A stretch of 64,000 nucleotides of DNA from a virus: positions 96,001-160,000 of the IMG/VR virus record IMGVR_UViG_3300045988_171958; one strand, given 5' to 3'. Position numbers and translations under genes: made by a program. This document shows, piece by piece, positions 2,164-64,000 of this stretch. Position 1 is the stretch's first letter. Every line of letters starts with the position of its first letter. The notes beneath the pieces were generated by a model. That model worked only from the letters and a program-made list of their open reading frames with translations, did not search any database and was not told the DNA's origin.

Positions 2164-2613
2164 ATGTTTATTAATACAAATACAATTGAAGCAGTAAAGC
2201 TTACTTATAAAGACAGATATTCAGTAAAGAATTTGTTGAATTCAGATAATGATATTCGAATTTGTGTATCGAAATATCCTAGCAATTATCGGGTTTTAGA
2301 TGGTTGTTGGATTGTCAGTATGCCAGCTCATTACTTTGTAAAGAAGTATCTTTATAGTGATGATCCTGAAATTGCTATTGATACAGAATTGGATGTTACT
2401 TCTCGTCATGATGTGTTTGATATTCTCAATAAGTTCATGAATCCTTACAATCTTCGAAATGACCATACAGTAGAAGATTTGAATGAACATTGGAATTTTA
2501 CAATTTTGGATGCAGAAGATATTCAGCATATCATTGATGCATACCACAACTATCTTGAAGTTGTAAAAAATGAGGTAGATAAGCAGATTTGGAAACTTGC
2601 TAACGGTAAATAA
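2164..2613 (+). CDS. hypothetical protein
   Basis: 149-aa ORF, tightly packed (3-nt gap). Confidence 0.7.
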   Translation: MFINTNTIEAVKLTYKDRYSVKNLLNSDNDIRICVSKYPSNYRVLDGCWIVSMPAHYFVKKYLYSDDPEIAIDTELDVTSRHDVFDILNKFMNPYNLRNDHTVEDLNEHWNFTILDAEDIQHIIDAYHNYLEVVKNEVDKQIWKLANGK

Positions 2614-2621
2614 GATATACT

Positions 2622-2816
2622 ATGATATACAAGATGATTGAAGATGACAAATGGGAGTATCGTACACAAATTGTAACAGTGCATGATATTTCTTATGACC
2701 AAGTAGATAGTAAGCTAGATGGTGCTGATGGGTGGGAAGCATTTAGTGTAGAACACATGTATGATGATAAGTTTGTGGTATTTTTGAAGAGAAAATACAA
2801 AGAAGTAGAGAAGTAA
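2622..2816 (+). CDS. hypothetical small protein
   Basis: 64-aa ORF in a co-directional packed array. Confidence 0.55.
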   Translation: MIYKMIEDDKWEYRTQIVTVHDISYDQVDSKLDGADGWEAFSVEHMYDDKFVVFLKRKYKEVEK

Positions 2817-2821
2817 AAATT

Positions 2822-3502
2822 ATGACGTATCGTAATAATAATCCAGTTTTCATGTATCCAAAGGATCCAAAGAAAAGAATTTGGCTAACTAATTATGCAG
2901 GTATTGTTGATGCAGATTGGAAAGAAAAATGTTGTACTCCTATCATATTTCTTGATATTGATGGTGTATTGAATAGTGGTGATTGGGCAGAAGAATTGTA
3001 CAAGAATCCAAATCCTAATTATCACAATTGGTGTGATCCTAAGACTGTTGATAGATTGATTGAATTTTTGCAATCAACAGGTTTCATGCTGGTATTGTCA
3101 TCATCTTGGAGAAGGTCAGGTAATATCTATGAAACATTCAAATCTTTAGATAGCATACCATATTTGAATAAGATATCTCCTTATATCATAGGACAAACTT
3201 GCAGATTGAATTTAGGTAGAACAAATGGTAAGCGTTGGTGTCGTGGTGATGAAATCAAAGTATGGGTTGATGAGTTCAAACCAAGCTACTATATGATTGT
3301 CGATGATGATACTGATATGTTGATAGAGCAATTTCCAAGGCTTATACAAACAGATCCAGAACATGGATTGACAGATGATGACTTGGTTAAATTGAAAAAT
3401 CAATTAGCATTAATATGCAATAAAGCTTGGAAAGAGAAATTTGACTTTTCTTTTGGTGACAGAATATTGATGTATAATTATACTACGAAATCTTATGAGT
3501 GA
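2822..3502 (+). CDS. HAD-superfamily phosphatase-like protein (type seen in RNA-repair contexts)
   Basis: IIFLDIDGVLNS (HAD motif I DxDG), SSSWR (motif II), MIVDDDTD (motif IV). Confidence 0.7.
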   Translation: MTYRNNNPVFMYPKDPKKRIWLTNYAGIVDADWKEKCCTPIIFLDIDGVLNSGDWAEELYKNPNPNYHNWCDPKTVDRLIEFLQSTGFMLVLSSSWRRSGNIYETFKSLDSIPYLNKISPYIIGQTCRLNLGRTNGKRWCRGDEIKVWVDEFKPSYYMIVDDDTDMLIEQFPRLIQTDPEHGLTDDDLVKLKNQLALICNKAWKEKFDFSFGDRILMYNYTTKSYE

Positions 3503-4840: not shown

Positions 4841-5836
4841 ATGGGAAAGCAAAAGAGATCGGAAAATACATATCAGAAGATTAATACAATCTTCAAGCGT
4901 GATATAAACAATATTATCATGCCTTATGATAGTTTTACTCTTCCTGAGTTTGAATGGTTGAGAAATTGCAAGTTTGATGCTACTATCAAGATTGATGGTA
5001 CAAACATGCGTATTGAAGTTTATCCACAGATTACAGATAAGCTTTGTAATGGTACTGTATCATTGTCATGTGGAATTGCTATTAAGGGTAAGACAGATAA
5101 TGCTAATATTCCACCTATGCTTGATGACTTCATGTGGAAGACTTATGTTTCATCTGATGGTAAGAAGTTAGAAGGTAATGGTGATCTTGTAAGTAAGATT
5201 TTTAAAGCGTTTAGACTTCCAGAATCTTACATGTGTACAAGAGACTTTGAAACTGGATTGAATATTCAAGAGAATGTCGATTGGATGCTTGAACGTGGAT
5301 ATATTAAGAAGTGTGGTTGTCATACTCTCAATCAGAAGCCATTTGATGATCCAGATGCTGTTGTAGTTGATGACTACATGGTTGATGAAGAGAATTGTAC
5401 ATTACCTAAGATGTTTACTATCTATGGTGAAGGTTATGGTAAGAAGATTGGTAAGTCTGGTTGTCGATACCTTAAGGATAGTGTAAGCTTCAGAGCTTTT
5501 GATGTTAAGGTAACTAACCGTGATGGTTCTTCAGTTTATTTGAATATTCCACAGCGAGATGCTATTCTTGATGAGATTGGTATACCTAAGGTAATTAGTC
5601 TTGGTCAGTTTACCATTGATGAAGCTATTGATTATGTTAAGAAGGGTTTCAAGGATCCATTAGCAGAAGATGATAGCTATGTAGCAGAAGGTCTTGTATT
5701 GAAGACACCAGATGGATTGCTTCGTAAGAATGGTGATCGTATCATATTCAAGATCAAGCATGGTGACTTTGAAAAGTACTTGAACAAGTATGGAACATTA
5801 GATAAAGTTGAACAAATTCCTAATCCAAATTATTAA
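4841..5836 (+). CDS. ATP-dependent RNA ligase (Rnl2/Rnl5-like nucleotidyltransferase)
   Basis: Motif I IKIDGTNMRI (KxDGxN adenylylation lysine), YGEGYGKKI, EGLVLK, IFKIKHGDF. Confidence 0.75.
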   Translation: MGKQKRSENTYQKINTIFKRDINNIIMPYDSFTLPEFEWLRNCKFDATIKIDGTNMRIEVYPQITDKLCNGTVSLSCGIAIKGKTDNANIPPMLDDFMWKTYVSSDGKKLEGNGDLVSKIFKAFRLPESYMCTRDFETGLNIQENVDWMLERGYIKKCGCHTLNQKPFDDPDAVVVDDYMVDEENCTLPKMFTIYGEGYGKKIGKSGCRYLKDSVSFRAFDVKVTNRDGSSVYLNIPQRDAILDEIGIPKVISLGQFTIDEAIDYVKKGFKDPLAEDDSYVAEGLVLKTPDGLLRKNGDRIIFKIKHGDFEKYLNKYGTLDKVEQIPNPNY

Positions 5837-11382: not shown

Positions 11383-12255
11383 TTAAATAGTATTAGTATT
11401 TATGAAGTAGTCAGCAGAATGGTTCTTCTGAATCCATTCATCTATCTTCTGCATTTCTTCATTAGCCATGTCTCTCCATATACTGTAATTTAAAGTAACT
11501 CCACCTGGTAGTTTGAATTCAAATGTACCAAGAATAGTAGCCATAGAACGTAAGCCAAGACAAACACAATATCTGAAGAAATAGTAGTTCTTGTACAAGT
11601 CTTGTATCTTAAGTCTCTTATATACATTGAGCATCAAATCAGAATGTCCAATAGCTCCTAGTACAACAAGGTCATTACTATAAGTATTGTAATTATATGT
11701 TACTGGAGTATTGAATATGTAGTCAAAAGTATCAAGTTCATATAATGCCGCTGTAACATCAGTCAATGTATATCCACCACCTGATCCATATACATCAGAT
11801 AGGCTACCACCAACTCCAGATGCTATAGCTGAATTGTTCAGTATCATTCTTTCCAAAGAAAAGTCACCCATAACACCATAAGACCAACTATCTGTTGCTT
11901 TGTACAATCCATTTACAGAAAGGATTTGTGGTGGCAACTTAGCAATCATGTTAGCGCCACATTTTGTAAACTCCTTGAATGGAAGACAATACCAACGTTC
12001 TTCTATAGCTCCATCGCAATTTTCCCAGAAATATTGTGCTGCTTGCAATATCAATGGTGGAATAGCTGATGGTTGCATTGGTAAATTTATTGCACATGTC
12101 TGGGTTAATTCTTGAATGATTCTTTGTATGAACTGATAATCTATTTGATCCTCTATTTTTTGTTTTCTCTTATTATATTCTTCTATAGAAATTTCTTTCT
12201 GTATTAAAGGATTATTGCCTGGATTTATGTTTTGTATGCAACTCATTGAATTCAA
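11383..12255 (-). CDS. hypothetical structural protein
   Basis: 290-aa ORF with a 1-nt gap to the next gene. Confidence 0.7.
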   Translation of the reverse strand: MNSMSCIQNINPGNNPLIQKEISIEEYNKRKQKIEDQIDYQFIQRIIQELTQTCAINLPMQPSAIPPLILQAAQYFWENCDGAIEERWYCLPFKEFTKCGANMIAKLPPQILSVNGLYKATDSWSYGVMGDFSLERMILNNSAIASGVGGSLSDVYGSGGGYTLTDVTAALYELDTFDYIFNTPVTYNYNTYSNDLVVLGAIGHSDLMLNVYKRLKIQDLYKNYYFFRYCVCLGLRSMATILGTFEFKLPGGVTLNYSIWRDMANEEMQKIDEWIQKNHSADYFINTNTI

Positions 12256-13244
12256 TCATTTAACTTATTTAAAAATTGAGTTAATAATTCATCTATAAAA
12301 TCTTTTCCTTCTTGTAATGACCAAACTTCTTTAAAATTTAAATTATTTCTTTTAGCTGTTTCTCTTTTATTTACATCATATATAGTCCATGTCTTTATTG
12401 CATTTAAATAATATTTATGGCCATTTTTATATTTTGATTTCCATGATTCTAATTGATTTTTATCATCTACATTATTTTTGTTGTAAGGATGTTTACCATG
12501 GGTCCAATTTCCATTTAATTCAATAAAATAATTCAATTCTGGAATATAAAAATCACATTGCCATGGATATTTCTCTTTATCTCTATATTGTCTTTTTACT
12601 GTTGGAAATTTAGATTTTATATACAAGAAAAGATCTTCTTCCGGTTTAGAAGAATTAAATGAATTATGTTCTTTTAAATTTAAATTTCTATTATATTGAA
12701 CCTTTTCAGAAGACATTATATCTGACATTTTTGTTTTCCAAATAGGAGATTTGGATATCCAATCAACATTATATTTTTCAATACATGTCTTTTTATATTT
12801 CGCTTTTATAACTTCTGATTTGAATGGGTGATCTACTCCATATTTTCTTAAAGAAGTTTCTATGGCAATTTTTCTTTTTTCTTTATCTTTTAATGGTGTT
12901 TCATATCCATATCTATTTAAACAAGTTTGCTTATATTTTTCTAATTTTTCTTTTGCATTATATGAACATTCATGGCAACAATATATAGTAAATGGTTTTT
13001 TAAATTTATTTGTAAAGACTACTTTATTTCCACAAGTTGGACATATTGGTCTTATTTCTATTTTAAGTCTCATTCTTAAAATTGTTTCTTGCCTAGATAA
13101 AGAATCATTATATCTATTATCCAAATAATCAGATATATTAGGATATTTACTTAATTTTCTAATTTTCCAATAATCATTTTTTCCATCTTTATTAGAAATA
13201 ACTTTCAATATTATATTATCGTGATTTGTTTTAATATTTTCCAT
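12252..13244 (-). CDS. homing-endonuclease-like protein (Zn ribbon + Vsr-like PD-(D/E)XK nuclease)
   Basis: RPICPTCGNK...CCHEC, repeats RYGYETP/KYGVDHP/KYNVDW, and nuclease core CDFYIPELNYFIELNGNWTHGKH. Paralog of 17363..18319. Very AT-rich. Confidence 0.7.
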   Translation of the reverse strand: MENIKTNHDNIILKVISNKDGKNDYWKIRKLSKYPNISDYLDNRYNDSLSRQETILRMRLKIEIRPICPTCGNKVVFTNKFKKPFTIYCCHECSYNAKEKLEKYKQTCLNRYGYETPLKDKEKRKIAIETSLRKYGVDHPFKSEVIKAKYKKTCIEKYNVDWISKSPIWKTKMSDIMSSEKVQYNRNLNLKEHNSFNSSKPEEDLFLYIKSKFPTVKRQYRDKEKYPWQCDFYIPELNYFIELNGNWTHGKHPYNKNNVDDKNQLESWKSKYKNGHKYYLNAIKTWTIYDVNKRETAKRNNLNFKEVWSLQEGKDFIDELLTQFLNKLND

Positions 13245-13304
13245 ATTTATTAAAATAGAAATAATTAATTTATATTGTATGTTAAATAAGATTAATGTTA
13301 AATT

Positions 13305-13402
13305 TCACTTCAGGGACGTTTAAAATATAACAGGTTATAAATTATACTTACATCCAATATTCCGCCAATCTCGTGACCCAGGCGCTTTCCTAGGGAATCC
13401 TG
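13305..13402 (-). repeat. GC-rich ~100-nt repeat family, copy D (inverted, degenerate left arm)
   Basis: Contains gtgacccaggcgc...tagggaatcct, and its AT-rich interior aligns with copy A. The arm tcacttcaggga lacks a full partner. Confidence 0.7.
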
Positions 13403-13456
13403 TTTTTATTTATATATTCTGATTGTTTTAACGAGTGTATCCTACACCAAAATCAT

Positions 13457-17362: not shown

Positions 17363-18319
17363 ATGGAATATGATAAAATTATTACAAATTTATTAATAAG
17401 TAATAAAAATAAAATTAGAAATGGAATATTAAGAAAAATAAAATTAAAATATCCTAATATATTATCTTATTTAATAAAAAGATATGATGATTCGGAATCA
17501 ATATCTGAAACTATAAGAAGAATTCAATATAATATAGAAAAAAGACCAGTTTGTAAAGTATGTGGTAAAAAGGTAAACTATATTTGTAATGGGAATTATA
17601 GAAATGTTTGTTCTTTTAAATGTGGAGAAATATATTGTAGAGAAAGAAGGTTTAAAACTATGATAGATAAATATGGTACACCATATCCTTATGAAAATAA
17701 AGATATAATGCGAAAAATGAGGGAAAATTTAAAAAATAAATATGGTGTTGATAATCCTTCTAAATTAGAAAATGTAAAAGAAAAGAAGAAAAATACATTT
17801 ATAAAACATTATGGTGTAGATAATTATTTCAAAACTGAAAAATCAGTTAAAAGATCCCATACAAAAGAATGTATAAATAAACAATATTTGACAAAAATAA
17901 AAAATAATTCATTTGGAAAATCTAAACAGGAAGATACAATATATGAAAAAATAAAAGAAGTATATCCAGATGTTATAAGACAATATAAAGATAAAATAAG
18001 ATATCCATATAATTGTGATTTTTATATTCCTGAGATAGATTTATTTATAGAATACCAGGGTTATTATACTCATGGTAAACATCCATTTAATATTAATAAT
18101 GAAAATGATAAAGAATTAATGGAGAAATATATAAATAAATATGGTAATAACAATCAACAATATACTATATGGTGTGTAAAAGATGTAGAAAAAAGGAATA
18201 CTGCAAAAAATAATAATTTAAATTATATTGAATTATTTAATTTTAAAAAATTAGATGAATTAATTGAAATAATAAAAAATAAAAACTATATTAAAAATAT
18301 TAGTAATTTAGTAATTTAA
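17363..18319 (+). CDS. homing-endonuclease-like protein (Zn ribbon + Vsr-like PD-(D/E)XK nuclease)
   Basis: RPVCKVCGKK...CSFKC, repeats KYGTPYP/KYGVDNP/HYGVDNY, and core CDFYIPEIDLFIEYQGYYTHGKH. Paralog of 12252..13244. Extremely AT-rich. Confidence 0.7.
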   Translation: MEYDKIITNLLISNKNKIRNGILRKIKLKYPNILSYLIKRYDDSESISETIRRIQYNIEKRPVCKVCGKKVNYICNGNYRNVCSFKCGEIYCRERRFKTMIDKYGTPYPYENKDIMRKMRENLKNKYGVDNPSKLENVKEKKKNTFIKHYGVDNYFKTEKSVKRSHTKECINKQYLTKIKNNSFGKSKQEDTIYEKIKEVYPDVIRQYKDKIRYPYNCDFYIPEIDLFIEYQGYYTHGKHPFNINNENDKELMEKYINKYGNNNQQYTIWCVKDVEKRNTAKNNNLNYIELFNFKKLDELIEIIKNKNYIKNISNLVI

Positions 18320-27403: not shown

Positions 27404-28039
27404 ATGAGTAAAACTGGATGGAAAAAGGTTGATAAAGAAAATCCTGAATGGAATGACATTGATACAATGTTGAATGAGTCTGATCCAGTTTTGACTGATG
27501 ATCCAGATGAAGAGCTTGAAATGCCTAAGCTTGATCTTGACTTGGAAAAAGTAGAATCTGAATCAGCAACACAAGCTCAGTTCATAGTAGAACGTCTTTC
27601 GGGATATTATTTTGATGCAAAGTATGTTGATGAACATCCTTATATTGTTTGTAAGATACAAACAGAAATGCAAAGTATAAGGAGACTTCTCAAGATGCTC
27701 ACAATAAATGAGAAAGCTCAGGATAGCATCATAATGGCCATAGCATTGTCCATGTCAAAGTCAACATTATATCAGTCTCTTACATCATTACAAAATTCTA
27801 CTTTATCTATACAAAAGCAACTTGATGATGTTGTTACTAAACTAGAAGATATATTCAGAATGATGCAAGAGGAATGCCAAAAATCATTCGAGGAAAAAGA
27901 TAAAGAAGATGATGGTAATGGTAAGATGGTAATAAAAGGTTCTAGAGAGTTTATTGAAGAAATGACAGCACGCTTAAATCAAAGAAAATACACAACCACA
28001 ACTACTAATAAAACTAATGAAGGTCAAGCAACAGCTTGA
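27404..28039 (+). CDS. hypothetical protein
   Basis: 211-aa ORF with an acidic N-terminus. Confidence 0.7.
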   Translation: MSKTGWKKVDKENPEWNDIDTMLNESDPVLTDDPDEELEMPKLDLDLEKVESESATQAQFIVERLSGYYFDAKYVDEHPYIVCKIQTEMQSIRRLLKMLTINEKAQDSIIMAIALSMSKSTLYQSLTSLQNSTLSIQKQLDDVVTKLEDIFRMMQEECQKSFEEKDKEDDGNGKMVIKGSREFIEEMTARLNQRKYTTTTTNKTNEGQATA

Positions 28040-28050
28040 CCTTTTGTTTA
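28020..28050 (+). terminator. hairpin terminator containing the stop codon
   Basis: aaggtcaagc-aaca-gcttgacctt, a 10-bp stem followed by ttgttta. Confidence 0.6.
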
Positions 28051-28710: not shown

Positions 28711-29061
28711 ATGAAAAGAAATCTCACACAAATGCAAGCCACGGTAATCACTTGGATGATAATGATTGCTATGATATTGTCATTCTTCTTCATGTCTTGT
28801 AGTTCACCAAAGCAAGTTGACAATACAACAATGCAATATGAACTTGATACATTAGTTGACAGACATTTTATAGATAGTGTATGTGTCGCAGATACATTAG
28901 CAAGATATCCTGTAGAATGGATATACTCACCAATGAGAGGATATGATACAAAGAAAGACATATCAACTTATGGGTGGATGAAGTCAAGCAACTGGACATT
29001 TTATAGAATAATCAAATATGAAGATGGCACTTATAGGTTAACAAAAAGAACTATACGATAA
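28711..29061 (+). CDS. putative lipoprotein
   Basis: Signal-like MIMIAMILSFFFMSCSSPKQ with a lipobox-type Cys. Divergent from the peptidase gene with a 34-nt gap. Confidence 0.6.
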   Translation: MKRNLTQMQATVITWMIMIAMILSFFFMSCSSPKQVDNTTMQYELDTLVDRHFIDSVCVADTLARYPVEWIYSPMRGYDTKKDISTYGWMKSSNWTFYRIIKYEDGTYRLTKRTIR

Positions 29062-29069
29062 TAAAAATT

Positions 29070-29160
29070 CTCCAGGATGGCGCCTGGGTCACACAGGGAG
29101 CGGAAAAGTATTTAAGAGTATAAATTATAACCTAAGAAAATTTTCTACTTCCTGTGTGAC
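29070..29160 (+). repeat. GC-rich ~100-nt repeat family, copy A
   Basis: ggcgcctgggtcacacagggagcggaa...ttcctgtgtgac. The arms tcacacaggga / ttcctgtgtga are followed by ctttttgttt. Confidence 0.75.
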
Positions 29161-29177
29161 TTTTTGTTTAAATAAAA

Positions 29178-29213: not shown

Positions 29214-29269
29214 AACAAAAAAAAATAATAATTAATAACATCACTGAAGTGATATTAAGAACTGAAGTT

Positions 29270-29833
29270 ATGAGTTATACATATAAATACGTACATTACG
29301 CAGTAACAGTAGATAATGTAATCTTCAATTTGAAGGATCCAAATAATCCTAAGGTGTTGCTCATCACTCGTAAGAATGAACCATTCAAAGGAAAGTTAGC
29401 ACTTCCTGGTGGATTCTTAGATCCAGATGACAGATCTGCAATGTCCGCTGCTATCCGTGAACTTAAGGAAGAGACAAACTTAAGCTTGAGTTATATGTTT
29501 CAAGTTTGTGCTCTTACTAAAGAAGGAAGAGATCCACGAGAGAGATGCATTTCTATTGTATATGCAGATACTGTTCATGATGATTTTGAAGGTCTGATTA
29601 AGGCGCAAGATGATGCATCAACAGTACAATGGGTATCATTAGTAGGTCTAAGAAAAGATGATTTAGCATTTGATCATGCTACTGCTATCTGGAAATCTAT
29701 CCAAGAATTGTTTGATGATGAGTCAAATTGCATTTCATTGTTTGATATCAAAGAAGAACAGTATCAACACACAAAGATGCTTCTTGATACAATAAAATTC
29801 AATTTAGGCCAAACTTTTTTACCAATATTTTGA
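29270..29833 (+). CDS. Nudix hydrolase-like protein
   Basis: LPGGFLDPDDRSAMSAAIRELKEETNL (Nudix box with Asp for the first Glu and one extra residue). The track start at 29249 is GTG; ATG is at 29270. Confidence 0.7.
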   Translation: MSYTYKYVHYAVTVDNVIFNLKDPNNPKVLLITRKNEPFKGKLALPGGFLDPDDRSAMSAAIRELKEETNLSLSYMFQVCALTKEGRDPRERCISIVYADTVHDDFEGLIKAQDDASTVQWVSLVGLRKDDLAFDHATAIWKSIQELFDDESNCISLFDIKEEQYQHTKMLLDTIKFNLGQTFLPIF

Positions 29834-29950
29834 AATTTTAGAAGTTGTTTCTATATGTTAGAACTTCATACTTCAGTTCAGCTAAAGTTAACTAAAGTTA
29901 ACAGGAAATAAAAGTTTGAATTTTAATTCAACTTTTCTATATTAGATATG
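29829..29950 (+). repeat. tandem-promoter cassette, copy 1 of 3 (two class-I promoters plus leader)
   Basis: P1 tttgaaattttagaagttgtttctatatg (29829), P2 tttgaattttaattcaacttttctatatt (29915). A 57-nt block gttaactaaagttaac...ttctatatt is identical in all three copies. Confidence 0.8.
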
Positions 29951-29981
29951 TTAATTTAATAATGAACATTTAAAAATTTTT

Positions 29982-30374
29982 ATGATTATGATGAATTCAA
30001 ATACAGTAAACAATTTCAACTTAAGTGCTCCAACTTCTATTGCATTCCGTTTCTTACAGGTACACAACCAGTTAGAGCACAACATGAAGAACTTGACAAA
30101 TGAAGCTCTCAAAAGTGTAATTTATGAGATTGTTTGTAAGATTTATAAGTCTTATGTAAACATGGGTTACAAAGAAGAGAACACTCCACAGTATCTTGAT
30201 ATTGCAGATACATTGTTTGAATACATTACTAATCAGAAAGTTTTCTTAAATCAATTAGTAGATGTATTAGATAAGAATCATCATGACTATGACATTATGA
30301 AGTATTGTGCTTTAGTTCTGAGTTCTACTGAGTACATTCTTGGAACTGATACTCTTGATGAACCAGAAGACTAA
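29982..30374 (+). CDS. hypothetical protein
   Basis: 130-aa ORF. The start context is tATGATTATGAtg. Confidence 0.65.
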   Translation: MIMMNSNTVNNFNLSAPTSIAFRFLQVHNQLEHNMKNLTNEALKSVIYEIVCKIYKSYVNMGYKEENTPQYLDIADTLFEYITNQKVFLNQLVDVLDKNHHDYDIMKYCALVLSSTEYILGTDTLDEPED

Positions 30375-31415: not shown

Positions 31416-31419
31416 AAAG

Positions 31420-31447
31420 AATGAGGAAGACTTAAGTCTTCCTCATT
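31420..31447. terminator. bidirectional palindromic terminator (CTTAAG-centred)
   Basis: aatgaggaagaCTTAAGtcttcctcatt lies between convergent genes and overlaps the stop of 31443..31688. Confidence 0.65.
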
Positions 31448-31688
31448 TTGTATTGCTTCTCAATATATCTTTTACTTTATTCAAAACTGTCTTATTAGGA
31501 CAATCTTCTCCTGCTCTGTTCATATAGAATACAAGTCTTTTCATTGCTTGACCTTCTGAATCTGAAGCATCTAACAATATTTGAGCTATTTCTCTAGGGT
31601 TTGTTTTAGTAAACAAACCATCAGGTGGATCCCATTTACCTTCTATATCAGATAGCTTTTCATTTACAAATTCACTTAATTTTTTCAT
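31443..31688 (-). CDS. DUF3175-like protein with MKKLSEFVNE leader
   Basis: GLFTKTNPREIAQIL...QAMKRLVFYMNRAGEDCP...LNKVKDILR resembles the DUF3175 pattern (from memory). Confidence 0.65.
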   Translation of the reverse strand: MKKLSEFVNEKLSDIEGKWDPPDGLFTKTNPREIAQILLDASDSEGQAMKRLVFYMNRAGEDCPNKTVLNKVKDILRSNTK

Positions 31689-34215: not shown

Positions 34216-34244
34216 AAAAATGGAGAACTTAAGTTCTCCATTTT
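34216..34244 (-). terminator. palindromic terminator (CTTAAG-centred)
   Basis: aaaaatggagaaCTTAAGttctccatttt, a perfect 22-nt palindrome flanked by A5 and T4. Confidence 0.6.
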
Positions 34245-40406: not shown

Positions 40407-40450
40407 TTAATGAACATCACTTTCAGTTCTGTTCAAGAACTAAAGTTAAA
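40407..40450 (+). repeat. 44-nt direct repeat, left copy (5' flank of the HExxH gene)
   Basis: ttaatgaacatcactttcagttctgttcaagaactaaagttaaa matches 40953..40996 with about 5 mismatches. Confidence 0.75.
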
Positions 40451-40470: not shown

Positions 40471-40956
40471 ATGATTATGAAAAAAGTAGTTGATTTTATG
40501 GATACCGAGTTTGCAAAAGACGTGATTAATGATGATGAAAAAATCATCTTTAAAAAAGTTTGCAGAGCTTCAAAGAACAATAATGTAAAGAATACCAGTA
40601 CAAAGAAAAATATGAAGAAGCAGAAGAAGTACGTGGATTTCCAATTCAACTTATTTGGTGAAACAATAGATGTTTGCTTCCATGATAAAGTATATTCTGA
40701 TTACGATAATTCTTGCTGGATCTTTGGTAACAGTAACTTATCAGAACAAGTAATCAACTTGTCATTGACTACTCCATCTGATAAGCCATTAAAATCAGAA
40801 CAGATAAAGCAGACATTTGTACATGAATGTGTACACATTATGCTTGAATCTGGTCAGTATTTTGAAGAATCATGCAATGAAGGTTTAGTAGAATGGATGG
40901 CTAAATGCATCAATATGATGTTCTTCACAAATACTGAACTTGCTAAGCACTTTTAA
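40471..40956 (+). CDS. putative small zinc metallopeptidase (HExxH)
   Basis: FVHECVHIMLESG contains HExxH. 161 aa. The start context is tATGATTATGAaa. Confidence 0.55.
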   Translation: MIMKKVVDFMDTEFAKDVINDDEKIIFKKVCRASKNNNVKNTSTKKNMKKQKKYVDFQFNLFGETIDVCFHDKVYSDYDNSCWIFGNSNLSEQVINLSLTTPSDKPLKSEQIKQTFVHECVHIMLESGQYFEESCNEGLVEWMAKCINMMFFTNTELAKHF

Positions 40957-40996
40957 TGAATATCACTTACAGATCTGTTCAAGAACTTAAGTTAAA
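40953..40996 (+). repeat. 44-nt direct repeat, right copy (3' flank of the HExxH gene)
   Basis: ttaatgaatatcacttacagatctgttcaagaacttaagttaaa begins at the stop codon. Confidence 0.75.
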
Positions 40997-41010
40997 AATC
41001 TCTAGGTATA

Positions 41011-41110
41011 CATAGGGTTCCCCTATTCCGCGCCTGGGTCACACAGGGAGCGGAATATTACTTAGAAGTATATTCTATCAGTTGGAACAATTTTAACGTC
41101 CCTGTGTGAA
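41011..41110 (+). repeat. GC-rich ~100-nt repeat family, copy B
   Basis: catagggttcccctattccgcgcctgggtcacacagggagcggaatatt...acgtccctgtgtgaa. The 11-nt arms tcacacaggga / tccctgtgtga are perfectly complementary. Confidence 0.8.
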
Positions 41111-42507: not shown

Positions 42508-42999
42508 ATGTCAGTAGATCATTGTATAAAAGCTTATAAAGGAGAAGTTTGGTTACCAGGTTGTCAATATACTTCTTATAGTGAATTTGAACGAGCAAAA
42601 GAAGAATGTTCAAATAATATTGATAGAATAAAGAATAAGATTCGTCAGATTTGTATTTGTACGCCAAAGGATGTGTTTCCATCAGATTCTGAAGGTGATA
42701 CACTATGGAAATTGAATACTGAAGTTGATGAATTGTTTGATGAATTGAATGAATATGAATGGGAAATGTGTAAAATCAATACCATTCAAACAATTCTTGA
42801 TGATTGGGAATATACTGGAAAGAAGGATCCTAAGAAAAATTGGACTAAGATTAATCCAGACTTGTATGCAGATTTGAAAAAGGATATGAAGAAAACCATT
42901 GAATCATTTGATGGTAACCCAGAAACTATTAAGAAGATGAAAGAAGAAAATGATAAGTTAAATGAAGAATTAAAGAAGAAATTGGAAGAGGAATCTTAA
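42508..42999 (+). CDS. hypothetical coiled-coil protein
   Basis: 163-aa ORF. It is the only gene here with an AAGGAG box 7 nt upstream. Confidence 0.7.
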   Translation: MSVDHCIKAYKGEVWLPGCQYTSYSEFERAKEECSNNIDRIKNKIRQICICTPKDVFPSDSEGDTLWKLNTEVDELFDELNEYEWEMCKINTIQTILDDWEYTGKKDPKKNWTKINPDLYADLKKDMKKTIESFDGNPETIKKMKEENDKLNEELKKKLEEES

Positions 43000-43020
43000 G
43001 ATTCCTCTTCTTTTATTTTG
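42985..43020 (+). terminator. palindromic terminator (CTTAAG-centred) containing the stop codon
   Basis: gaagaggaatCTTAAGattcctcttc followed by ttttattttg. Confidence 0.7.
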
Positions 43021-45568: not shown

Positions 45569-45679
45569 TTGAATTTAAAATATGTTAATTTATAAATGAC
45601 ACCAAACAGATTAACATATATTACAAAATCTGTAAGTCTTACTGTCGGTGTCTTACTGTTTCATTTATATAAAAATAAA

Positions 45680-45707
45680 AAGGACAGAACTTAATTGTCC
45701 TGTCCTT
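45680..45707 (-). terminator. hairpin terminator (minus strand)
   Basis: aaggacag/ctgtcctt stem, with a T-run on the minus strand (plus-strand aaaaataaaa at 45671-45680). Confidence 0.6.
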
Positions 45708-45735
45708 TATATATTAGAAATATTTAAGTTAGAAA

Positions 45736-51673: not shown

Positions 51674-51795
51674 TTTGAAATTTTTTGAAACTTTTCTATA
51701 TGTTATAACTTCATACTTCAGTTCAACTGAAGTTAACTAAAGTTAACAGGAAATAAAAGTTTGAATTTTAATTCAACTTTTCTATATTATTAACG
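51674..51795 (+). repeat. tandem-promoter cassette, copy 2 of 3
   Basis: P1 at 51674, leader hairpin acttcagt-tca-actgaagt, and P2 at 51760. Nearly identical to 29829..29950. Confidence 0.8.
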
Positions 51796-51849
51796 TATTT
51801 AATATATACAACAAACAAATATTTTAACAATTTAAATTAAGAAAGAATT

Positions 51850-55470: not shown

Positions 55471-56268
55471 ATGATTATGAACTACGCAGAAGTTAAAGCT
55501 AAGTACACAACAGTTGAGTCTATCGATATTCGTTTGAATGAGATTGATGAACTTACTAAGGTTGGAGCTGAGAAATATACAAGTGCTGTTACTAACTACA
55601 TCAACGAAGTGAATGATGTTTTGAAGAAGTTCAACATTACTGAGTACCATGTCAATGTCGCTTCTGATAGAAATGTAAGCTTCAAACCAGAAGATAACAA
55701 CAGTTTCTATGAAGTAGATATCTATCCTTCTTATGAGTATAATTGGGATACTAACAAAAAGGTATGGGATTTCCGTTTGAATATCAGTTCTTATGGTGAT
55801 GTTAGAATCAACAATCTCGATGAAAGAAGCATTAAAGTTCTCAAGTACTATGAGTTTGTTGCGATGATTATCAACAACAAGGAATTTGCGAAGGAACTCG
55901 AAGATACTTGTCACAAGAATGTTGATAACCTTTATAAAATCAATAAGGAATATTCATTTACTTCAGAAGAGCAGCAGCTTAGAATTCTCCGTAACAACCT
56001 CATTAAGGAAGCAGCTTACGGTAAGATTCTTACTTCAGTTATGGATGCCAAAGACAAGACTCAGTTAGTTGTAGTCAAGAAGAATGTTTCAGAAGATGAA
56101 GCTGATGGAGTTCGCAAAGGTGAATTCATCAAGGTGATGACAGAACCTCTTCCTAATACTCCTGAAACTCGTCCAGAAGTTGACAAGAAACTTAAAGAAA
56201 TTGCAAAGACAAATGAAGGTAAGTTTATTCTCACTCAGATCAGATTCATTAAGTTGAATGAAGAATAA
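55471..56268 (+). CDS. hypothetical protein
   Basis: 265-aa ORF. The start context is aATGATTATGAac. Confidence 0.75.
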   Translation: MIMNYAEVKAKYTTVESIDIRLNEIDELTKVGAEKYTSAVTNYINEVNDVLKKFNITEYHVNVASDRNVSFKPEDNNSFYEVDIYPSYEYNWDTNKKVWDFRLNISSYGDVRINNLDERSIKVLKYYEFVAMIINNKEFAKELEDTCHKNVDNLYKINKEYSFTSEEQQLRILRNNLIKEAAYGKILTSVMDAKDKTQLVVVKKNVSEDEADGVRKGEFIKVMTEPLPNTPETRPEVDKKLKEIAKTNEGKFILTQIRFIKLNEE

Positions 56269-56269
56269 A

Positions 56270-56368
56270 TTCACACAGGGACTCTCAAATGAGTCCCTTT
56301 TATAGAATATGCTTCAGTATATTTATCCGCTCCCTGTGTGACCCAGGCGCTTAACAGGGGAATCCTAG
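56270..56368 (-). repeat. GC-rich ~100-nt repeat family, copy C (inverted)
   Basis: ttcacacaggga...ccgctccctgtgtgacccaggcgcttaacaggggaatcctag. The interior carries the hairpin gggactc-tcaaat-gagtccc-tttt. Confidence 0.8.
56278..56303 (+). terminator. hairpin terminator embedded in repeat copy C
   Basis: gggactc/gagtccc 7-bp stem followed by ttttat, 10 nt after the stop of the 55471 gene. Confidence 0.6.
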
Positions 56369-56394: not shown

Positions 56395-56670
56395 ATGTCA
56401 TTATTGAGAAGAAAAGCATTAGTCAACTATAAAGTTAGCTATACCACGATGTTTGGAATTTCTGGTTTCTATGAATGTACAAAACTGATGTGGTGCAATA
56501 TGTTTGGTAATGTTACTGAAAATACATTAGATACATGGACAGCTATATTAGAAGATGAAGAAGCCAAGCAGTTGAATGAACGAACATATTCACATGGTCA
56601 AGAAAATGAAGGTAAAGTAGCAGAATTACATGTTGTCATTACAGGTTTCACAAAATTAGATTTGAATTAA
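56395..56670 (+). CDS. hypothetical protein
   Basis: 91-aa ORF directly upstream of rtcB. Confidence 0.6.
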   Translation: MSLLRRKALVNYKVSYTTMFGISGFYECTKLMWCNMFGNVTENTLDTWTAILEDEEAKQLNERTYSHGQENEGKVAELHVVITGFTKLDLN

Positions 56671-56672
56671 TA

Positions 56673-57980
56673 ATGGAATATAATATAATTGGTAAGTACA
56701 ATAAGGATTGCAAGATTTTTGCAAAGACAGTTGAAGAAGATGCATTGAAGATGGTTTACAGTATTTGTGACTGTCCTGCATTTAAGAATCAGAAGATAAG
56801 AGTGATGTGTGATGTACACTGTGGACAGGGGATAGTGATAGGATTTTCTTCAACTATTGATAAGGAGAATCCAATGGTCAATCCAAGCCATGTAGGTGTG
56901 GATATTGGTTGTCAGGTAACTTGTATCAAGATGTCAAAGCCATGTCCAGAGGAATCTTATGCATTGCTTGAACATCGATGGAAGAAGGATATCCCTACTG
57001 GATTCACTATCTATGATAAGAAGATTGCTGATGAGAAGATGTTCTACAAGATGTGCAATACTGCTATTGACAGAGCTGTTGCTACAACAGATTTTGTGAA
57101 CAATGTAAATGTAAATGAAAAGTACATTTCTGATATGCTGAAGCGAATTGGTATGGATGAAGGTACTTTCTGGAAGTCATTAGGTACTACTGGTGGTGGC
57201 AATCATTTCTTGTCTTATGATACTGATGATGAAGGTAACGGATATATCATGATACATTGTGGTTCTCGCAATTTTGGTTTGAAGGTAGCAAAGTACTGGG
57301 TGAATGTTGCAAACAAGCCTTATCATGTTGACAGTTCAGAATGGGCAAAGCATATTGAAAAGATAAAGGACACATATCCTAAGTCAGAGTGGAATGAGCG
57401 AATCAAGAATGCAAAGGAAGACTTTGTATCATCTGTTCCTACTGGTTATCTGAATGGTGAGAATCTGATTGGTTATCTTACTGATATGGTAATTGCACAG
57501 ACTTATGCTAAGTACAATCATTTGCTTATTTCAGATAAGATGACTGAAATCTATACTAAGATTGTCAAAGGTGCTACAACAGCTCGTGTCATCAATACTA
57601 TGCATAATTATATTGACTTTGATGATATGATTATCCGTAAAGGTTCTGTCAATGCTGCTTATGGACGTGAACTTGTGATTCCTATCAACATGCGAGATGG
57701 TGTATTGATTTGTGTAGGTAAAGGAAATGCTGAATGGAATTGTACTGCTCCTCATGGTGCCGGTCGATTGATGTCACGTTCTGCTGCTAAGGCAAATCTT
57801 TCTATGGATGAATTTACTGAAGAGATGAAGGACGTTTGTTCAACTTCTGTCAACAAGTCAACATTGGATGAGTCTCCTATGGCATACAAGCCTATGGATG
57901 AGATTATTGAACAGATTGAACCAACAGTTCAGATTCTGAAGAGAATAAAAGAGCGAATAAATATTAAAGCAGCTGAATAA
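56673..57980 (+). CDS. rtcB: RtcB-family RNA 3'-phosphate/5'-OH ligase
   Basis: CDVHCGQG, GTTGGGNHFLS, IHCGSRNFGLKVA, APHGAGR. 435 aa. Confidence 0.85.
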   Translation: MEYNIIGKYNKDCKIFAKTVEEDALKMVYSICDCPAFKNQKIRVMCDVHCGQGIVIGFSSTIDKENPMVNPSHVGVDIGCQVTCIKMSKPCPEESYALLEHRWKKDIPTGFTIYDKKIADEKMFYKMCNTAIDRAVATTDFVNNVNVNEKYISDMLKRIGMDEGTFWKSLGTTGGGNHFLSYDTDDEGNGYIMIHCGSRNFGLKVAKYWVNVANKPYHVDSSEWAKHIEKIKDTYPKSEWNERIKNAKEDFVSSVPTGYLNGENLIGYLTDMVIAQTYAKYNHLLISDKMTEIYTKIVKGATTARVINTMHNYIDFDDMIIRKGSVNAAYGRELVIPINMRDGVLICVGKGNAEWNCTAPHGAGRLMSRSAAKANLSMDEFTEEMKDVCSTSVNKSTLDESPMAYKPMDEIIEQIEPTVQILKRIKERINIKAAE

Positions 57981-57983
57981 TTT

Positions 57984-58075
57984 TTTGAAATTTTTGAAGT
58001 TGTTTCTATATGTTAACTAAAGTTAACAGGAAATAAAAGTTTGAATTTTAATTCAACTTTTCTATATTCAGTATG
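57984..58075 (+). repeat. tandem-promoter cassette, copy 3 of 3 (about 30 nt deleted)
   Basis: P1 at 57984 and P2 at 58040. It has the identical 57-nt block but lacks the acttcatacttcag... hairpin segment. Confidence 0.8.
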
Positions 58076-58125
58076 TCAAACAAATATTGACAAACTGAAT
58101 GTAGAACAATTTAATTTTTAAGATT

Positions 58126-63627: not shown

Positions 63628-64000
63628 ATGGCACAGTCAAGTAATTCACAGTTTGCAGTACTTTCAAATGGTTTGATTATTAAGTTTTCAAATATTGTAG
63701 GAATTCAGCCTAATGCATCTAATAATGGTGAGTATTATGTACATACAGTAACATCTCAGTATTATAAGATTAATGTTAGTGATTATAATTATCTCAAGAA
63801 TTGTCTTTCTCGTTCAGAGTTCTATACATTTGTTAGTGGTTTGGTAGTAAGGAATGACTATGTAATCGGTATTCAGGCAACTGATAAAGATGGTGAGTAT
63901 TATGTACATACTACAACACCACAGTATTACAAAATCAATAAGTCTGATTATTGCCAATTTATTGGTGACAACTTTACATTCAATACTTCTGATCCAGTAG
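63628..64000 (+). CDS. protein with two SQYYK-type domains (runs off right edge)
   Basis: Manual translation MAQSSNSQFAVLSNGLIIKFSNIVGIQPNASNNGEYYVHTVTSQYYKINVSDYNYL...GLVVRNDYVIGIQATDKDGEYYVHTTTPQYYKINKSDY... stays open to the window end. Confidence 0.6.
   Translation, partial: MAQSSNSQFAVLSNGLIIKFSNIVGIQPNASNNGEYYVHTVTSQYYKINVSDYNYLKNCLSRSEFYTFVSGLVVRNDYVIGIQATDKDGEYYVHTTTPQYYKINKSDYCQFIGDNFTFNTSDPV

What the first reader, a model, noticed from the sequence alone, without database searches (positions are those of the whole stretch)
41011..41110. GC-rich ~100-nt structured repeat family with 11-nt inverted arms, four intergenic copies (reference copy B)
In a genome of about 70% A+T, four intergenic loci share a GC-rich element:

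AGGRTTCCCCT-N4-6-GCGCCTGGG-TCACACAGGGA-GCGGAA-(about 50 nt AT-rich, containing RAGTATAWWTTMTA)-TCCCTGTGTGA

The copies are A 29070-29160(+), B 41011-41110(+), C 56270-56368(-) and D 13305-13402(-). The block GCGCCTGGGTCAC is identical in all four.

The arms TCACACAGGGA and TCCCTGTGTGA are perfectly complementary in B and C, have one mismatch in A, and are degenerate in D.

The element occurs in both orientations relative to neighbouring genes, so it is not simply a terminator or a promoter. The options are:
- a MITE-like mobile element with terminal inverted repeats,
- a structured ncRNA,
- a protein-binding or recombination site.

I could not match it to any RNA or repeat class I know. I tried tRNA, hammerhead, HDV-like and CRISPR-repeat mimics by eye.
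Basis: seen in the sequence. Interest (0 to 1): 0.7.

Follow-up and report, generated by a model that had tools for sequence, protein, structure and literature searches.

The report
Repeated terminator-like hairpin in gut phages
A real, roughly 100-base GC-rich repeat sits between genes in a group of large human-gut phages; it most likely makes a two-hairpin RNA that ends or insulates transcripts and serves as a recombination joint, and it shows none of the hallmarks of a jumping element.

Summary
The window has exactly four copies (A, B, C, D), far more than chance gives. Rfam has no match.

The same family occurs at about 14 fixed intergenic positions, with 5 to 11 copies per genome. It is found in about ten related AT-rich phage contigs of 167-293 kb from human-gut metagenomes.

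**Anatomy**
- A small 5' hairpin, P1 (YYAGG-N6-CCUGGG).
- A long hairpin, P2 (GUCAC-N7-GCGGAAAA ... UCCCUGUGUGA), usually followed by a U run.
- An AT-rich top whose fold differs between subtypes.

**Position.** About 70% of copies start 0-56 nt (mostly within 20 nt) after the stop codon of a gene on the same strand.

**P2 and context.** P2 is intact where a same-direction gene follows. It has decayed where an ordinary two-way terminator follows.

**Strand.** G·U pairs outnumber A·C about 3:1, which points to RNA made from the forward strand. Formal covariation tests are not significant.

**Mobility.** There are no target-site duplications. The inverted arms are not at the ends of the element. 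All 13 relatives' loci fetched through flanking genes carry the element at the same place. The MITE reading is therefore rejected.

**Best reading (about 0.5).** A transcribed terminator or insulator hairpin module, kept alike by recombination between copies. It works much like T4 PeSLs or bacterial REPs but belongs to neither family. The role of the conserved 25-nt core is unresolved.

The parts
29066..29170 (+). Copy A, short 5' form. P1 is TCCAGG 29071-29076 paired with CCTGGG 29083-29088. The core is 29080-29104. The P2 5' arm is 29089-29099 and the 3' arm 29149-29159 (one G·T). The tail CTTTTTGTTT is at 29160-29169. The element begins 5 nt after the TAA stop (29059-29061) of gene 28711-29061.
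   Evidence: MFE -37 kcal/mol, z = -5.16; 106 bits
40998..41120 (+). Copy B (the reference copy), long 5' form. The outer P1 5' strand CTCTAGG is at 41000-41006. An inserted hairpin ATAGGG-TTC-CCCTAT is at 41012-41026. The core is 41030-41054. The P2 arms are 41039-41049 and 41099-41109 (perfect). The tail ACATTTAACA is U-poor.
   Evidence: z = -2.89; 101.6 bits
56262..56371 (-). Copy C lies antisense between + strand genes 55471-56268 and 56395-56670. The core is 56326-56350. The P2 arms are 56331-56341 and 56271-56281 (perfect).
   Evidence: (93.8 bits)
56278..56303 (+). A conventional terminator embedded in the 3' half of copy C and read on the + strand: GGGACTC-TCAAAT-GAGTCCC followed by TTTTAT. 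It starts 10 nt after the stop of gene 55471-56268.
   Evidence: (+ strand fold z = -3.20). It is conserved in the C-locus orthologues L143-L147.
13296..13403 (-). Copy D is the degenerate subtype, with 5' arm TCAC-GAGATTG-GCGGA. The core is 13361-13385 and the 3' arm TCCCTGAAGTGA is 13305-13316. It lies in a divergent intergenic region, 147 nt from the start of gene 13550(+) and about 60 nt upstream of gene 12252-13244(-).
   Evidence: z = -0.76; 75.9 bits
29179..29205 (+). Phage promoter-family motif TTGAAATTTCCTATCATTATTCTATTT, 19 nt after copy A. It drives the NUDIX gene 29249-29833. The same pairing of element then promoter recurs at four other loci in relatives.
   Evidence: (families D1/D2)
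40953..40996 (+). A 44-nt module (D10, hairpin-forming) directly upstream of copy B. It is a direct repeat of 40407-40450, and the pair brackets gene 40471-40956. In relatives the same module abuts the element on either side and in either orientation.
   Evidence: D10, 91% identity

Best explanation
The element is a transcribed, cis-acting intergenic RNA module.

**How it would work**
- It is read on its forward strand, mostly as the 3' untranslated tail of the gene just upstream.
- It folds into a small GC hairpin, P1, stacked on a long hairpin, P2, that is usually followed by a U run.
- P2 ends the upstream transcript, or at least insulates or stabilises it, before the next promoter or gene.
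- Because about 100 nt of near-identical sequence is repeated at about 14 positions in the genome, the copies also recombine with one another. This keeps them alike and swaps their sub-modules.

**What is shown**
- The repeat family and its fixed positions.
- The inverted-repeat geometry.
- Placement after stop codons.
- P2 integrity that depends on context.
- The G·U strand bias.
- The mosaic make-up of the copies.

**What is inferred**
- That the element is transcribed.
- That it actually terminates transcription.
- What the invariant 25-nt core GCGCCUGGGUCAC-N7-GCGGA does beyond forming one strand of P1 and P2.
For: 1. **Position.** 43 of 71 unique copies with both neighbours called (29 + 14), and 46 of all 74 unique copies, start 0-56 nt after the stop codon of a co-oriented gene, mostly within 20 nt.

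2. **P2 integrity tracks context**.
   - Where a co-directional gene or promoter follows, the 11-bp lower stem keeps 9-11 pairs in 28 of 29 unique copies. These come from about 7 independent loci.
   - Where a convergent gene with its own conventional two-way terminator follows, it keeps only 7-8 pairs in 14 of 14 copies. These come from 4 loci: the L008, L016 and L045 loci plus L171.
   - L171 has lost the 3' arm entirely.

3. **U run.** At least 5 T in the 10 nt after the stem in about two-thirds of the intact copies.

4. **Strand-specific pairing.**
   - G·U against A·C is 97:29 over P1 and P2.
   - In the 30 short-form copies the P1 5' strand has six variants (TCCAGG, TCTAGG, CCCAGG, CCTAGG, TTCAGG, ACTAGG). 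All can pair with CCUGGG, giving 98% of cells paired (37 G·U, 1 A·C).
   - At the L045 locus the 5' strand reads GAAGCGG, GAAACGG, GAAAUGG or GAAACAA. Every version pairs with the constant UUGUUUC.
   - 40 of 47 unique copies fold more stably on the forward strand. Four of the seven exceptions are copies at the two antisense loci, G1 and C.

5. **Compensated variants.** GGGA/UCCC becomes GGUA/UACC in L019 and L012. The D-type arm GAUG(A)GCGGAUUA pairs with UAAUCCGCCAUC in L237.

6. **Promoter follows.** The phage's own promoter motif follows the element within 7-21 nt at five loci.

7. **Mosaicism.**
   - Orthologous copies differ by whole 5' modules (A against L004, B against L001) or by whole apical modules (A against L018).
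   - L005 has two copies 460 nt apart with an identical 3' 75 nt but different 5' cores.
Against: - The formal covariation tests are null. 72.0% of cells are paired against 71.6% in shuffles, and only 8 cells show a change on both sides. The apical helix scores 49% against 47.5%. The stems could simply be conserved inverted repeats.
- Three or four loci (G1, C, L005, L237) hold the element antisense between two co-directional genes. There the forward strand has no obvious source of transcription, yet P2 is intact.
- Copy B and its orthologues lack a U run.
- The apical 50 nt is unusually long for an intrinsic terminator.
- Most promoter units in the window have no such element upstream, so it is not the phage's general terminator. 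Ordinary terminators exist and look different.
- The 5' core is better conserved than its pairing partner. 68% of copies found through the 3' arm have an exact core, against 33% the other way round. Pure hairpin function does not explain that.
- There are no transcript data.
Confidence: 0.5

Rival explanations
1. The conserved 25-nt core (P1 3' strand, then GUCAC-N7-GCGGA) is a recognition site for a phage or host protein, on RNA or on DNA. P2 is then a terminator whose use is regulated. Two versions are possible. In the first, a nut-like hairpin sits next to a terminator and gives timed read-through. In the second, termination is coupled to translation, because a ribosome stopping 2-11 nt upstream would cover the 5' strand of P1.
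For: - The core is nearly invariant over about 70 unique copies and is more conserved than its pairing partner.
- It survives where P2 has decayed or is gone: the D locus, the L016 and L008 loci, and L171.
- The GCGG side of the internal loop is unpaired in 85% of copies yet invariant within alignment A2, although that alignment was assembled with patterns that require it.
- The P1 5' strand lies within a ribosome footprint of the stop codon at most loci (my own reading of the distances).
- An alternative pairing, CCUG...CAGG, competes with both P1 and P2.
Against: - No candidate binding protein was found among about 50 window proteins scanned.
- The core can be lost while P2 is kept. L136:5470 has ACAAA in place of GCGGA.
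- The alternative hairpin is weak (about -8 kcal/mol) against a P2 of more than -20, so it is a poor antiterminator.
- Part of the apparent invariance comes from how the copies were found, since the search patterns required the core.
Confidence: 0.2
2. The element works at the DNA level as a recombination or cassette-shuffling site, or as some other DNA-structural site. This would resemble REP/BIME elements or integron attC sites: a cruciform or single-strand hairpin, independent of orientation. Any transcription effect would be secondary.
For: - It occurs in both orientations.
- Copies are mosaic, with exchange points inside the element.
- Two copies flank a homing-endonuclease fragment in L005.
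- A homing-endonuclease gene is inserted 41 bp beyond copy D.
- Like attC and REP, the element sits right after stop codons.
Against: - The G·U over A·C bias and the C/U-only variation in P1 are not expected for a DNA hairpin or a duplex site.
- P2 integrity depends on the transcriptional context.
- No recombinase, RAYT or integrase was found in the window.
- No gene presence/absence breakpoints were mapped exactly to the element. The homing-endonuclease insertion boundary lies outside it.
Confidence: 0.12
3. Each copy is a separate small-RNA gene of about 100 nt, with its own promoter just upstream of AGG and its own terminator (P2 plus the U run).
For: - The copies with no co-oriented upstream gene (G1, C, D, L005, L237) all have a TATAAT-like hexamer 5-8 nt before the element.
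- D follows ATATAAATAAA directly.
- The element ends in a terminator-like hairpin.
Against: - TATAAT-like strings are common by chance in 70% A+T DNA. The generic promoter scan finds no more hits than shuffles do (116 against 119).
- The phage's real promoter motif, TTTGAAATTT-N10-TTCTATAT, is never found upstream of a copy.
- In most loci a stop codon, not a promoter, abuts the element.
- There is no covariation.
Confidence: 0.08
4. It is a MITE-like non-autonomous transposable element with terminal inverted repeats.
For: - It is multi-copy, intergenic, found in both orientations and carries 11-21-bp inverted arms.
Against: - The arms are not terminal. A conserved 5' domain lies outside them.
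- There are no target-site duplications.
- There are no empty sites: all 13 relatives' loci fetched through flanking genes carry it.
- No transposase is present in the window.
- The family is absent from bacterial genomes, apart from phage contigs binned into MAGs.
Confidence: 0.03

Closest known systems
PeSLs (promoter-early stem-loops) of T4-type phages (Arbiol et al. 2010, PMC2839356; Comeau et al. 2014, PMC4122927)
   Same: - Both are repeated intergenic cassettes of about 100 bp in a large lytic phage genome.
- Both contain a stem-loop shown (PeSL) or inferred (here) to terminate or attenuate upstream transcription.
- Both sit among small genes of unknown function.
- Both have conserved sequence that gives homology for recombination and module swapping between related phages.
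   Different: - A PeSL is defined by a built-in sigma-70-type early promoter. Here the phage's promoter motif is a separate module, adjacent at only 5 of about 14 loci.
- The stem-loop here is far longer and is preceded by a second conserved hairpin.
- There is no sequence similarity.
- The phage lineage is different: human-gut jumbo phages, distantly related to the PAU/PTm1 group.
- Mini-circles and gene indels bounded by the element were not shown here.
REP/BIME elements of bacterial chromosomes (for example PMC3733652)
   Same: - Both are GC-rich imperfect palindromes in extragenic 3' regions.
- Both occur in either orientation.
- Both are linked to termination and mRNA 3'-end stabilisation.
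- Both show family-wide sequence conservation.
   Different: - REPs are 20-40 bp, carry a GTAG or CGTC head, number in the hundreds per genome and are tied to a RAYT transposase.
- This element is about 100 nt, has no such head, has 5-11 copies per genome and has no RAYT in the window.
Rho-independent (intrinsic) terminators
   Same: - Both have a GC-rich stem followed by a U run, downstream of a stop codon.
- The P2 stem is kept intact exactly where termination or insulation would be needed.
   Different: - Ordinary terminators in this same phage are short perfect hairpins with a 4-nt loop and are not alike in sequence.
- This element has a 50-nt apical insert, an extra 5' hairpin and a conserved internal loop.
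- At the B locus it has no U run.
RNase III processing sites of phage T7 (R1-R5); comparison from my own knowledge
   Same: - Both are sequence-related irregular hairpins of about 60-100 nt between co-transcribed genes.
- Both have two roughly 10-bp helical segments separated by a conserved internal loop (here GCGG/AACG).
- In T7, processing leaves a protective 3' hairpin.
   Different: - No cleavage data exist for this element.
- T7 sites all share one orientation.
- There is no sequence similarity, and P1 has no counterpart in T7.

Membership tests
MITE | Inverted repeats form the termini of the element | tested here: not met
   A conserved 20-45 nt domain (P1 and its variants) lies 5' of the left arm in every copy.
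MITE | Target-site duplication flanks the element | tested here: not met
   The flanks of A-D share no direct repeat.
MITE | Insertion polymorphism (filled and empty sites) among close relatives | tested here: not met
   Loci were fetched through flanking proteins. The element is present at the A locus in 6 of 6, at the B locus in 2 of 2 and at the C locus in 5 of 5 close relatives. Only close relatives could be sampled.
PeSL (T4-type promoter-early stem-loop) | The repeat unit contains a consensus early promoter | tested here: not met
   The phage promoter motif TTTGAAATTT-N10-TTCTATAT is not inside the element. It lies 7-21 nt downstream at five loci only.
PeSL (T4-type promoter-early stem-loop) | A stem-loop that terminates or attenuates transcription | tested here: inconclusive
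   The stem-loop is present, most copies have a U run, and its integrity depends on context. Termination itself cannot be tested with these tools.
PeSL (T4-type promoter-early stem-loop) | Recombination between copies causes gene indels or replacements between related phages | tested here: inconclusive
   Sub-module swaps occur inside the element, and L005 has a duplicated pair of copies. No gene indel bounded by two copies was mapped.
REP/BIME | A 20-40-bp palindrome with a GTAG or CGTC head, in high copy number | tested here: not met
   The element is about 100 nt, has no such head and has 4 copies in 64 kb.
REP/BIME | An associated RAYT (Y1 transposase) | tested here: inconclusive
   None was found among about 50 window proteins scanned against Pfam or PHROGs. 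The rest of the roughly 250-kb genome was not seen.
Any Rfam family (ribozymes, riboswitches, small RNAs) | A covariance-model match | tested here: not met
   No hit at gathering thresholds over the whole window, and none at E up to 10 around copy B.
Intrinsic terminator | A stable GC-rich hairpin immediately followed by a U tract, downstream of a gene on the same strand | tested here: inconclusive
   Met by A and by most copies in relatives. B has only 3 T in the next 10 nt, C is antisense and D has no stable hairpin.
Structured non-coding RNA supported by covariation | Statistically supported compensatory changes | tested here: not met
   The paired fraction and covariation score are not above the shuffles. 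Only one-sided G·U-type evidence supports pairing.

The most novel reading that the evidence does not exclude
The element would be a regulated terminator unit specific to this clade of human-gut jumbo phages. A sequence-conserved two-hairpin RNA, whose invariant core is read by a phage factor or by the terminating ribosome, decides whether RNA polymerase stops at P2 or reads into the next cassette. This would give temporal or translation-coupled control. The repeated 100-nt homology would at the same time act as the joint for cassette shuffling.
Probability: 0.15. Interest if true: 0.6.

Novelty: new variant of a known kind. Interest (0 to 1): 0.4.

Why it matters
Large uncultured gut phages are known almost only as gene lists, and their regulatory grammar is blank.

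This family, together with the promoter motif and the other intergenic modules found beside it, gives a first sketch of how one such clade punctuates its transcripts. It also shows how its intergenic regions are built from swappable parts. That extends the PeSL idea beyond T4-type phages.

The family also supplies a clean search model for marking these phages in metagenomes. If the conserved core proves to be a protein-recognition site, it would be a handle on regulated termination in phages of a host group that may be Bacteroidota, where such mechanisms are little studied.

If it is only a terminator kept uniform by gene conversion, it is a useful annotation but not a surprise.

Tried and rejected
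- **Rfam.** Searched at gathering thresholds over the window and at E up to 10 around copy B. Nothing was found.
- **tRNA/tmRNA.** None in the window.
- **Nucleotide match to known phages.** A megablast of 20 kb against INPHARED gave no match.
- **Consensus fold of the full alignment.** RNAalifold gave no meaningful consensus, because the apical fold differs between subtypes.
- **Covariation counts.** Not significant for P1 and P2 or for an apical helix.
- **Loose 5' pattern TTCNCNNGGNNNGCGCCTGGG.** Returned mostly chance hits in GC-rich phages.
- **Bacterial genome scan.** No host copy, CRISPR spacer or host REP relative turned up.
- **Mini-ORF.** ATGGCGCCTGGGTCACACAGGGAGCGG... could encode a short peptide, but the ATG is absent in most copies. 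Rejected.
- **Promoter inside the hairpin loop, on either strand.** The spacing and hexamers do not fit the phage's own motif. Rejected by eye; the generic scan is no better than shuffles.
- **T7-type promoter resemblance.** TCACACAGGGAG resembles TCACTATAGGGAG, but it is one base short, it is absent in the D type, and no single-subunit RNA polymerase domain was found in the large ORFs. Rejected.
- **Invertible promoter (inverton).** About 50 bp lies between the arms, which is too short, and the loop does not occur in both orientations. Rejected.
- **CCWGG site enrichment.** 35 observed against 26 expected, so nothing special.
- **Looking for empty sites of the other loci in the window.** Those loci are not within this 64 kb.

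Full report
**1.

- The 13-mer GCGCCTGGGTCAC occurs four times and nowhere else, even with two mismatches allowed, against 0.08 expected.
- The 25-nt core GCGCCTGGGTCAC-N7-GCGGA gives the same four hits with three mismatches allowed, against 0.00 expected.
- The arm TCCCTGTGTGA accounts for six arm hits against 0.5 expected.
- A covariance model built later from 55 family members, run over the window with filters off, finds these four copies at 76-106 bits. The only other significant hits are reverse-strand matches to the palindromic P2 of A and B; no other locus scores above 12 bits.

The window is about 30% G+C throughout, so the element stands out.

- Copy A lacks the AGGRTTCCCCT head.
- Copy B starts about 13 nt earlier than stated and carries an inserted mini-hairpin.
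- The loop motif is only loosely shared.

**2. Where the window comes from**

The window has no nucleotide match in INPHARED. It encodes:
- a T4-type neck protein, a family B DNA polymerase fragment, helicases and a lysozyme-domain protein;
- RNA-repair genes (RtcB, an RNA ligase and a HAD 'Swiss army knife' protein);
- a NUDIX hydrolase;
- two DUF7487 homing-endonuclease-like genes.

The neck protein's only relatives among deposited phages are jumbo phages of Sphingomonas (PAU), Tenacibaculum and Chryseobacterium, at 25-36% identity.

Scans with the core pattern give the distribution.
- In IMG/VR it occurs in 45 AT-rich loci from eight contigs, seven of them 167-283 kb.
- In metagenome assemblies it occurs in further contigs up to 292 kb, several labelled as human gut metagenome.
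- In the bacterial genome collection the only AT-rich hits are phage contigs binned into MAGs.
- A relative with 80% RtcB identity (L146), and phages with more distant RtcB, lack the element.

The family is therefore confined to one clade of large human-gut phages. Each contig has 5-8 strict-core copies, or about 8-11 when slightly variant cores are counted.

**3. Anatomy**

Aligning about 70 unique copies gives this layout.

- **(i) A variable 5' module.**
  - The short form is ATTCYCYAGG-AWR.
  - Two longer forms carry a local hairpin with a UUC(Y) loop, for example ACAGGG-UUC-CCCUGU. In B this is AUAGGG-UUC-CCCUAU, a compensated pair.
- **(ii) P1.** YYAGG pairs with CCUGGG across a 6-nt loop ending in GCG.
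- **(iii) P2.** The 5' arm is GUCAC-N7-GCGGAAAA and the 3' arm is UUUU-NNNN-UCCCUGUGUGA(C).
  - The arms give a perfect stem of about 20 bp in L136 and L019.
  - In 85% of copies GCGG faces AACG as a 4x4 internal loop.
- **(iv) An AT-rich top of 30-50 nt.** It holds a loosely conserved TATAATTTAT or TATATTCTAT motif, and its fold differs between subtypes.
- **(v) A U run** in most copies.

A second subtype of the 5' arm, GUCAC-GAGAUKG-GCGGA, includes copy D. It has a matching 3' arm only in L237 (UAAUCCGCCAUC).

**4. Context**

I called ORFs crudely in all AT-rich loci and classed each copy by its neighbours.
- 43 of 71 unique copies with both neighbours called (46 of all 74) follow a co-oriented gene, with the element starting 0-56 nt after its stop codon, mostly within 20 nt.
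- At five loci, including A, the phage's own promoter motif follows within 7-21 nt. That motif is TTTGAAATTT-N10-TTCTATAT, with 19 copies in the window.
- At four loci a convergent gene follows, with a conventional two-way terminator.
- At three or four loci (G1, C, L005, L237) the element is antisense between two co-directional genes.
- At the D locus it lies in a divergent region.

The integrity of P2 follows this context.

| What follows the element | Pairs kept in the 11-bp lower stem | Copies | Independent loci |
|---|---|---|---|
| Co-directional gene or promoter | 9-11 | 28 of 29 | about 7 |
| Convergent gene with its own terminator | 7-8 | 14 of 14 | 4 |

- One copy in the second class (L171) has no 3' arm at all.
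- Counting loci rather than copies gives roughly 7 intact and 1 decayed against 0 intact and 4 decayed. My own Fisher exact estimate is about 0.01.
- Copy C is antisense. It carries a conventional + strand terminator, GGGACTC-N6-GAGTCCC followed by TTTTAT, inside its 3' half, 10 nt after the stop of the + strand gene.
- Copy D has nothing upstream to terminate, and it is the copy with no significant fold (z = -0.76).

**5. RNA or DNA, and which strand**

The formal tests are negative.
- On the 55-sequence alignment, 72.0% of cells pair against 71.6% in shuffles, with only 8 cells changed on both sides.
- The register is right, since slid controls give 31-53%. That only shows the arms are inverted repeats.
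- The apical helix has no support.

The non-Watson-Crick cells are lopsided, however.
- There are 97 G·U against 29 A·C in P1 and P2. In copies with an intact lower stem the counts in that stem are 10 against 2.
- In the 30 short-form copies the P1 5' strand takes six forms that differ only by C/U opposite G. 98% of cells are paired, with 37 G·U and 1 A·C.
- At the L045 locus four orthologues read GAAGCGG, GAAACGG, GAAAUGG and GAAACAA against a constant UUGUUUC. Every state is a standard RNA pair on the forward strand and would be an A·C mismatch on the other strand.
- 40 of 47 unique copies fold more stably on the forward strand. Four of the seven exceptions are copies at the two antisense loci, G1 and C.

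I read this as moderate evidence that the forward-strand RNA is what selection sees. It is not proof, because transition bias and shared ancestry inflate such counts.

**6. Mobility**

- There are no target-site duplications.
- The inverted arms are not terminal.
- Loci fetched through flanking proteins, independently of the element, all carry it at the same site and orientation. The counts are 5 of 5 at the C locus through RtcB, 6 of 6 at the A locus through NUDIX, and 2 of 2 at the B locus.
- No transposase or recombinase domain was found among about 50 window proteins.

The MITE reading is rejected.

What does move is parts of the element.
- A and its orthologue L004 differ by a swapped 5' module.
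- B and L001 differ by a 73-nt against an 18-nt 5' segment.
- A and L018 differ in the whole apical module inside an otherwise 89% identical 3-kb alignment.
- L005 has two copies 460 nt apart with an identical 3' 75 nt and different 5' cores. They flank a homing-endonuclease fragment.

This is the signature of recombination or gene conversion among dispersed copies.

**7. The unexplained part: the core**

When copies are found through the 3' arm alone, 15 of 22 have an exact core. The other seven differ at one to a few positions. When they are found through the core, only about a third have the exact common 3' arm. The 5' strand is therefore better kept than its partner, and it persists where P2 has decayed.

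It is not indispensable, though. In L136:5470, GCGGA has become ACAAA while P2 is kept.

The 5' domain alone has several alternative folds at -8 to -11 kcal/mol in A, C and D. One of them is a CCUG...CAGG hairpin that competes with both P1 and P2. Copy B's extended variant of that hairpin reaches -21 kcal/mol.

A protein-recognition or regulated-termination role is possible. I give it 0.2 as a rival explanation.

**8. Comparison with known systems**

- The closest in function are the PeSL cassettes of T4-type phages. These are intergenic units of about 100 bp with a terminating stem-loop and an early promoter, and they mediate modular shuffling (PMC2839356, PMC4122927). The present element fails the defining promoter criterion and has a different architecture, so it works like a PeSL without being one.
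- REP/BIME elements share the extragenic, palindromic, either-orientation character. They differ in size, head motif and copy number, and in their link to RAYT.
- T7 RNase III sites share the two-segment hairpin with a conserved internal loop. That comparison is from my own knowledge and cannot be tested here.
- Ordinary terminators in this phage are short perfect hairpins with TTAA loops.

**9. Verdict**

The repeat family is real, previously uncatalogued and specific to one clade. Most likely (0.5) it is a transcribed terminator or insulator hairpin module that also serves as a recombination joint. It is not a MITE.

It is a new variant of a known kind of intergenic cassette, of moderate interest. 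The open point worth an experiment is what reads the invariant core.

Noticed in passing
window, 19 sites, e.g. 1647, 3836, 27019, 29179, 35414, 40368, 41370, 50703, 60433, 62775: There is a highly uniform promoter-like family, TTTGAAATTT-N10-TTCTATAT. 18 of its 19 copies are on the + strand upstream of small genes. It is probably the phage's early promoter. The TTTG plus 19-nt spacing, and the lack of Shine-Dalgarno sequences at the few gene starts read by eye, hint at a Bacteroidota-type host.
   Followed up: partly
window 40407-40450 and 40953-40996: A 44-nt direct repeat (91% identical, hairpin-forming, TTAATGAACATCACTTTCAGTTCTGTTCAAGAACTAAAGTTAAA) brackets gene 40471-40956. In relatives the same module abuts the GC-rich element on either side and in either orientation. 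It is a second swappable intergenic module.
   Followed up: partly
window 12279-13263 (gene 12252-13244, - strand): A homing-endonuclease gene (PHROG 3339, DUF7487) is a ~985-bp insertion. It is absent from at least nine related contigs, which are otherwise 87-99% identical on both sides. The boundary lies 41 bp beyond copy D. A second DUF7487 gene is at 17363-18319.
   Followed up: partly
window 2822-3502, 4841-5836, 56673-57980, 29249-29833: The window carries an RNA-repair toolkit: a HAD domain of 'Swiss army knife' RNA repair proteins, an RNA ligase, RtcB and a NUDIX hydrolase. This suggests defence against host tRNA or anticodon nucleases.
   Followed up: no
window 28019-28044, 31418-31449, 34217-34244, 42984-43011, 45679-45708: Ordinary terminators here are perfect 10-14-bp hairpins with a TTAA or CTTAAG centre. 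Most score as terminators on both strands, and two were checked to lie between convergent genes. They are a separate, structurally uniform class from the GC-rich element.
   Followed up: no
window 29829-29987, 51674-51832, 57954-58112: A 159-nt repeat occurs three times (81% and 60% identity to the first copy). The first two copies contain two tandem promoter motifs about 86 nt apart, separated by a TAAAGTTAAC-rich spacer; in the third copy the motifs are 56 nt apart.
   Followed up: no
window 63720-63786 and 63885-63951: A 67-nt direct repeat (78% identical), 165 nt apart, near the window's end. It is probably a repeated protein segment inside a coding region.
   Followed up: no
L282, L324, L346 (CALFLM01 contigs): Contigs of this phage clade are deposited as part of an 'uncultured Romboutsia sp.' MAG. 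This is probably a composition-binning artefact, so the label should not be read as the host.
   Followed up: no
L005 (IMGVR 3300045988_095960), reverse-strand positions about 2540-3125: Two element copies lie 460 nt apart in the same orientation. They flank a fragmented homing-endonuclease-like ORF and sit next to an intact NUMOD4/HNH-like gene.
   Followed up: partly
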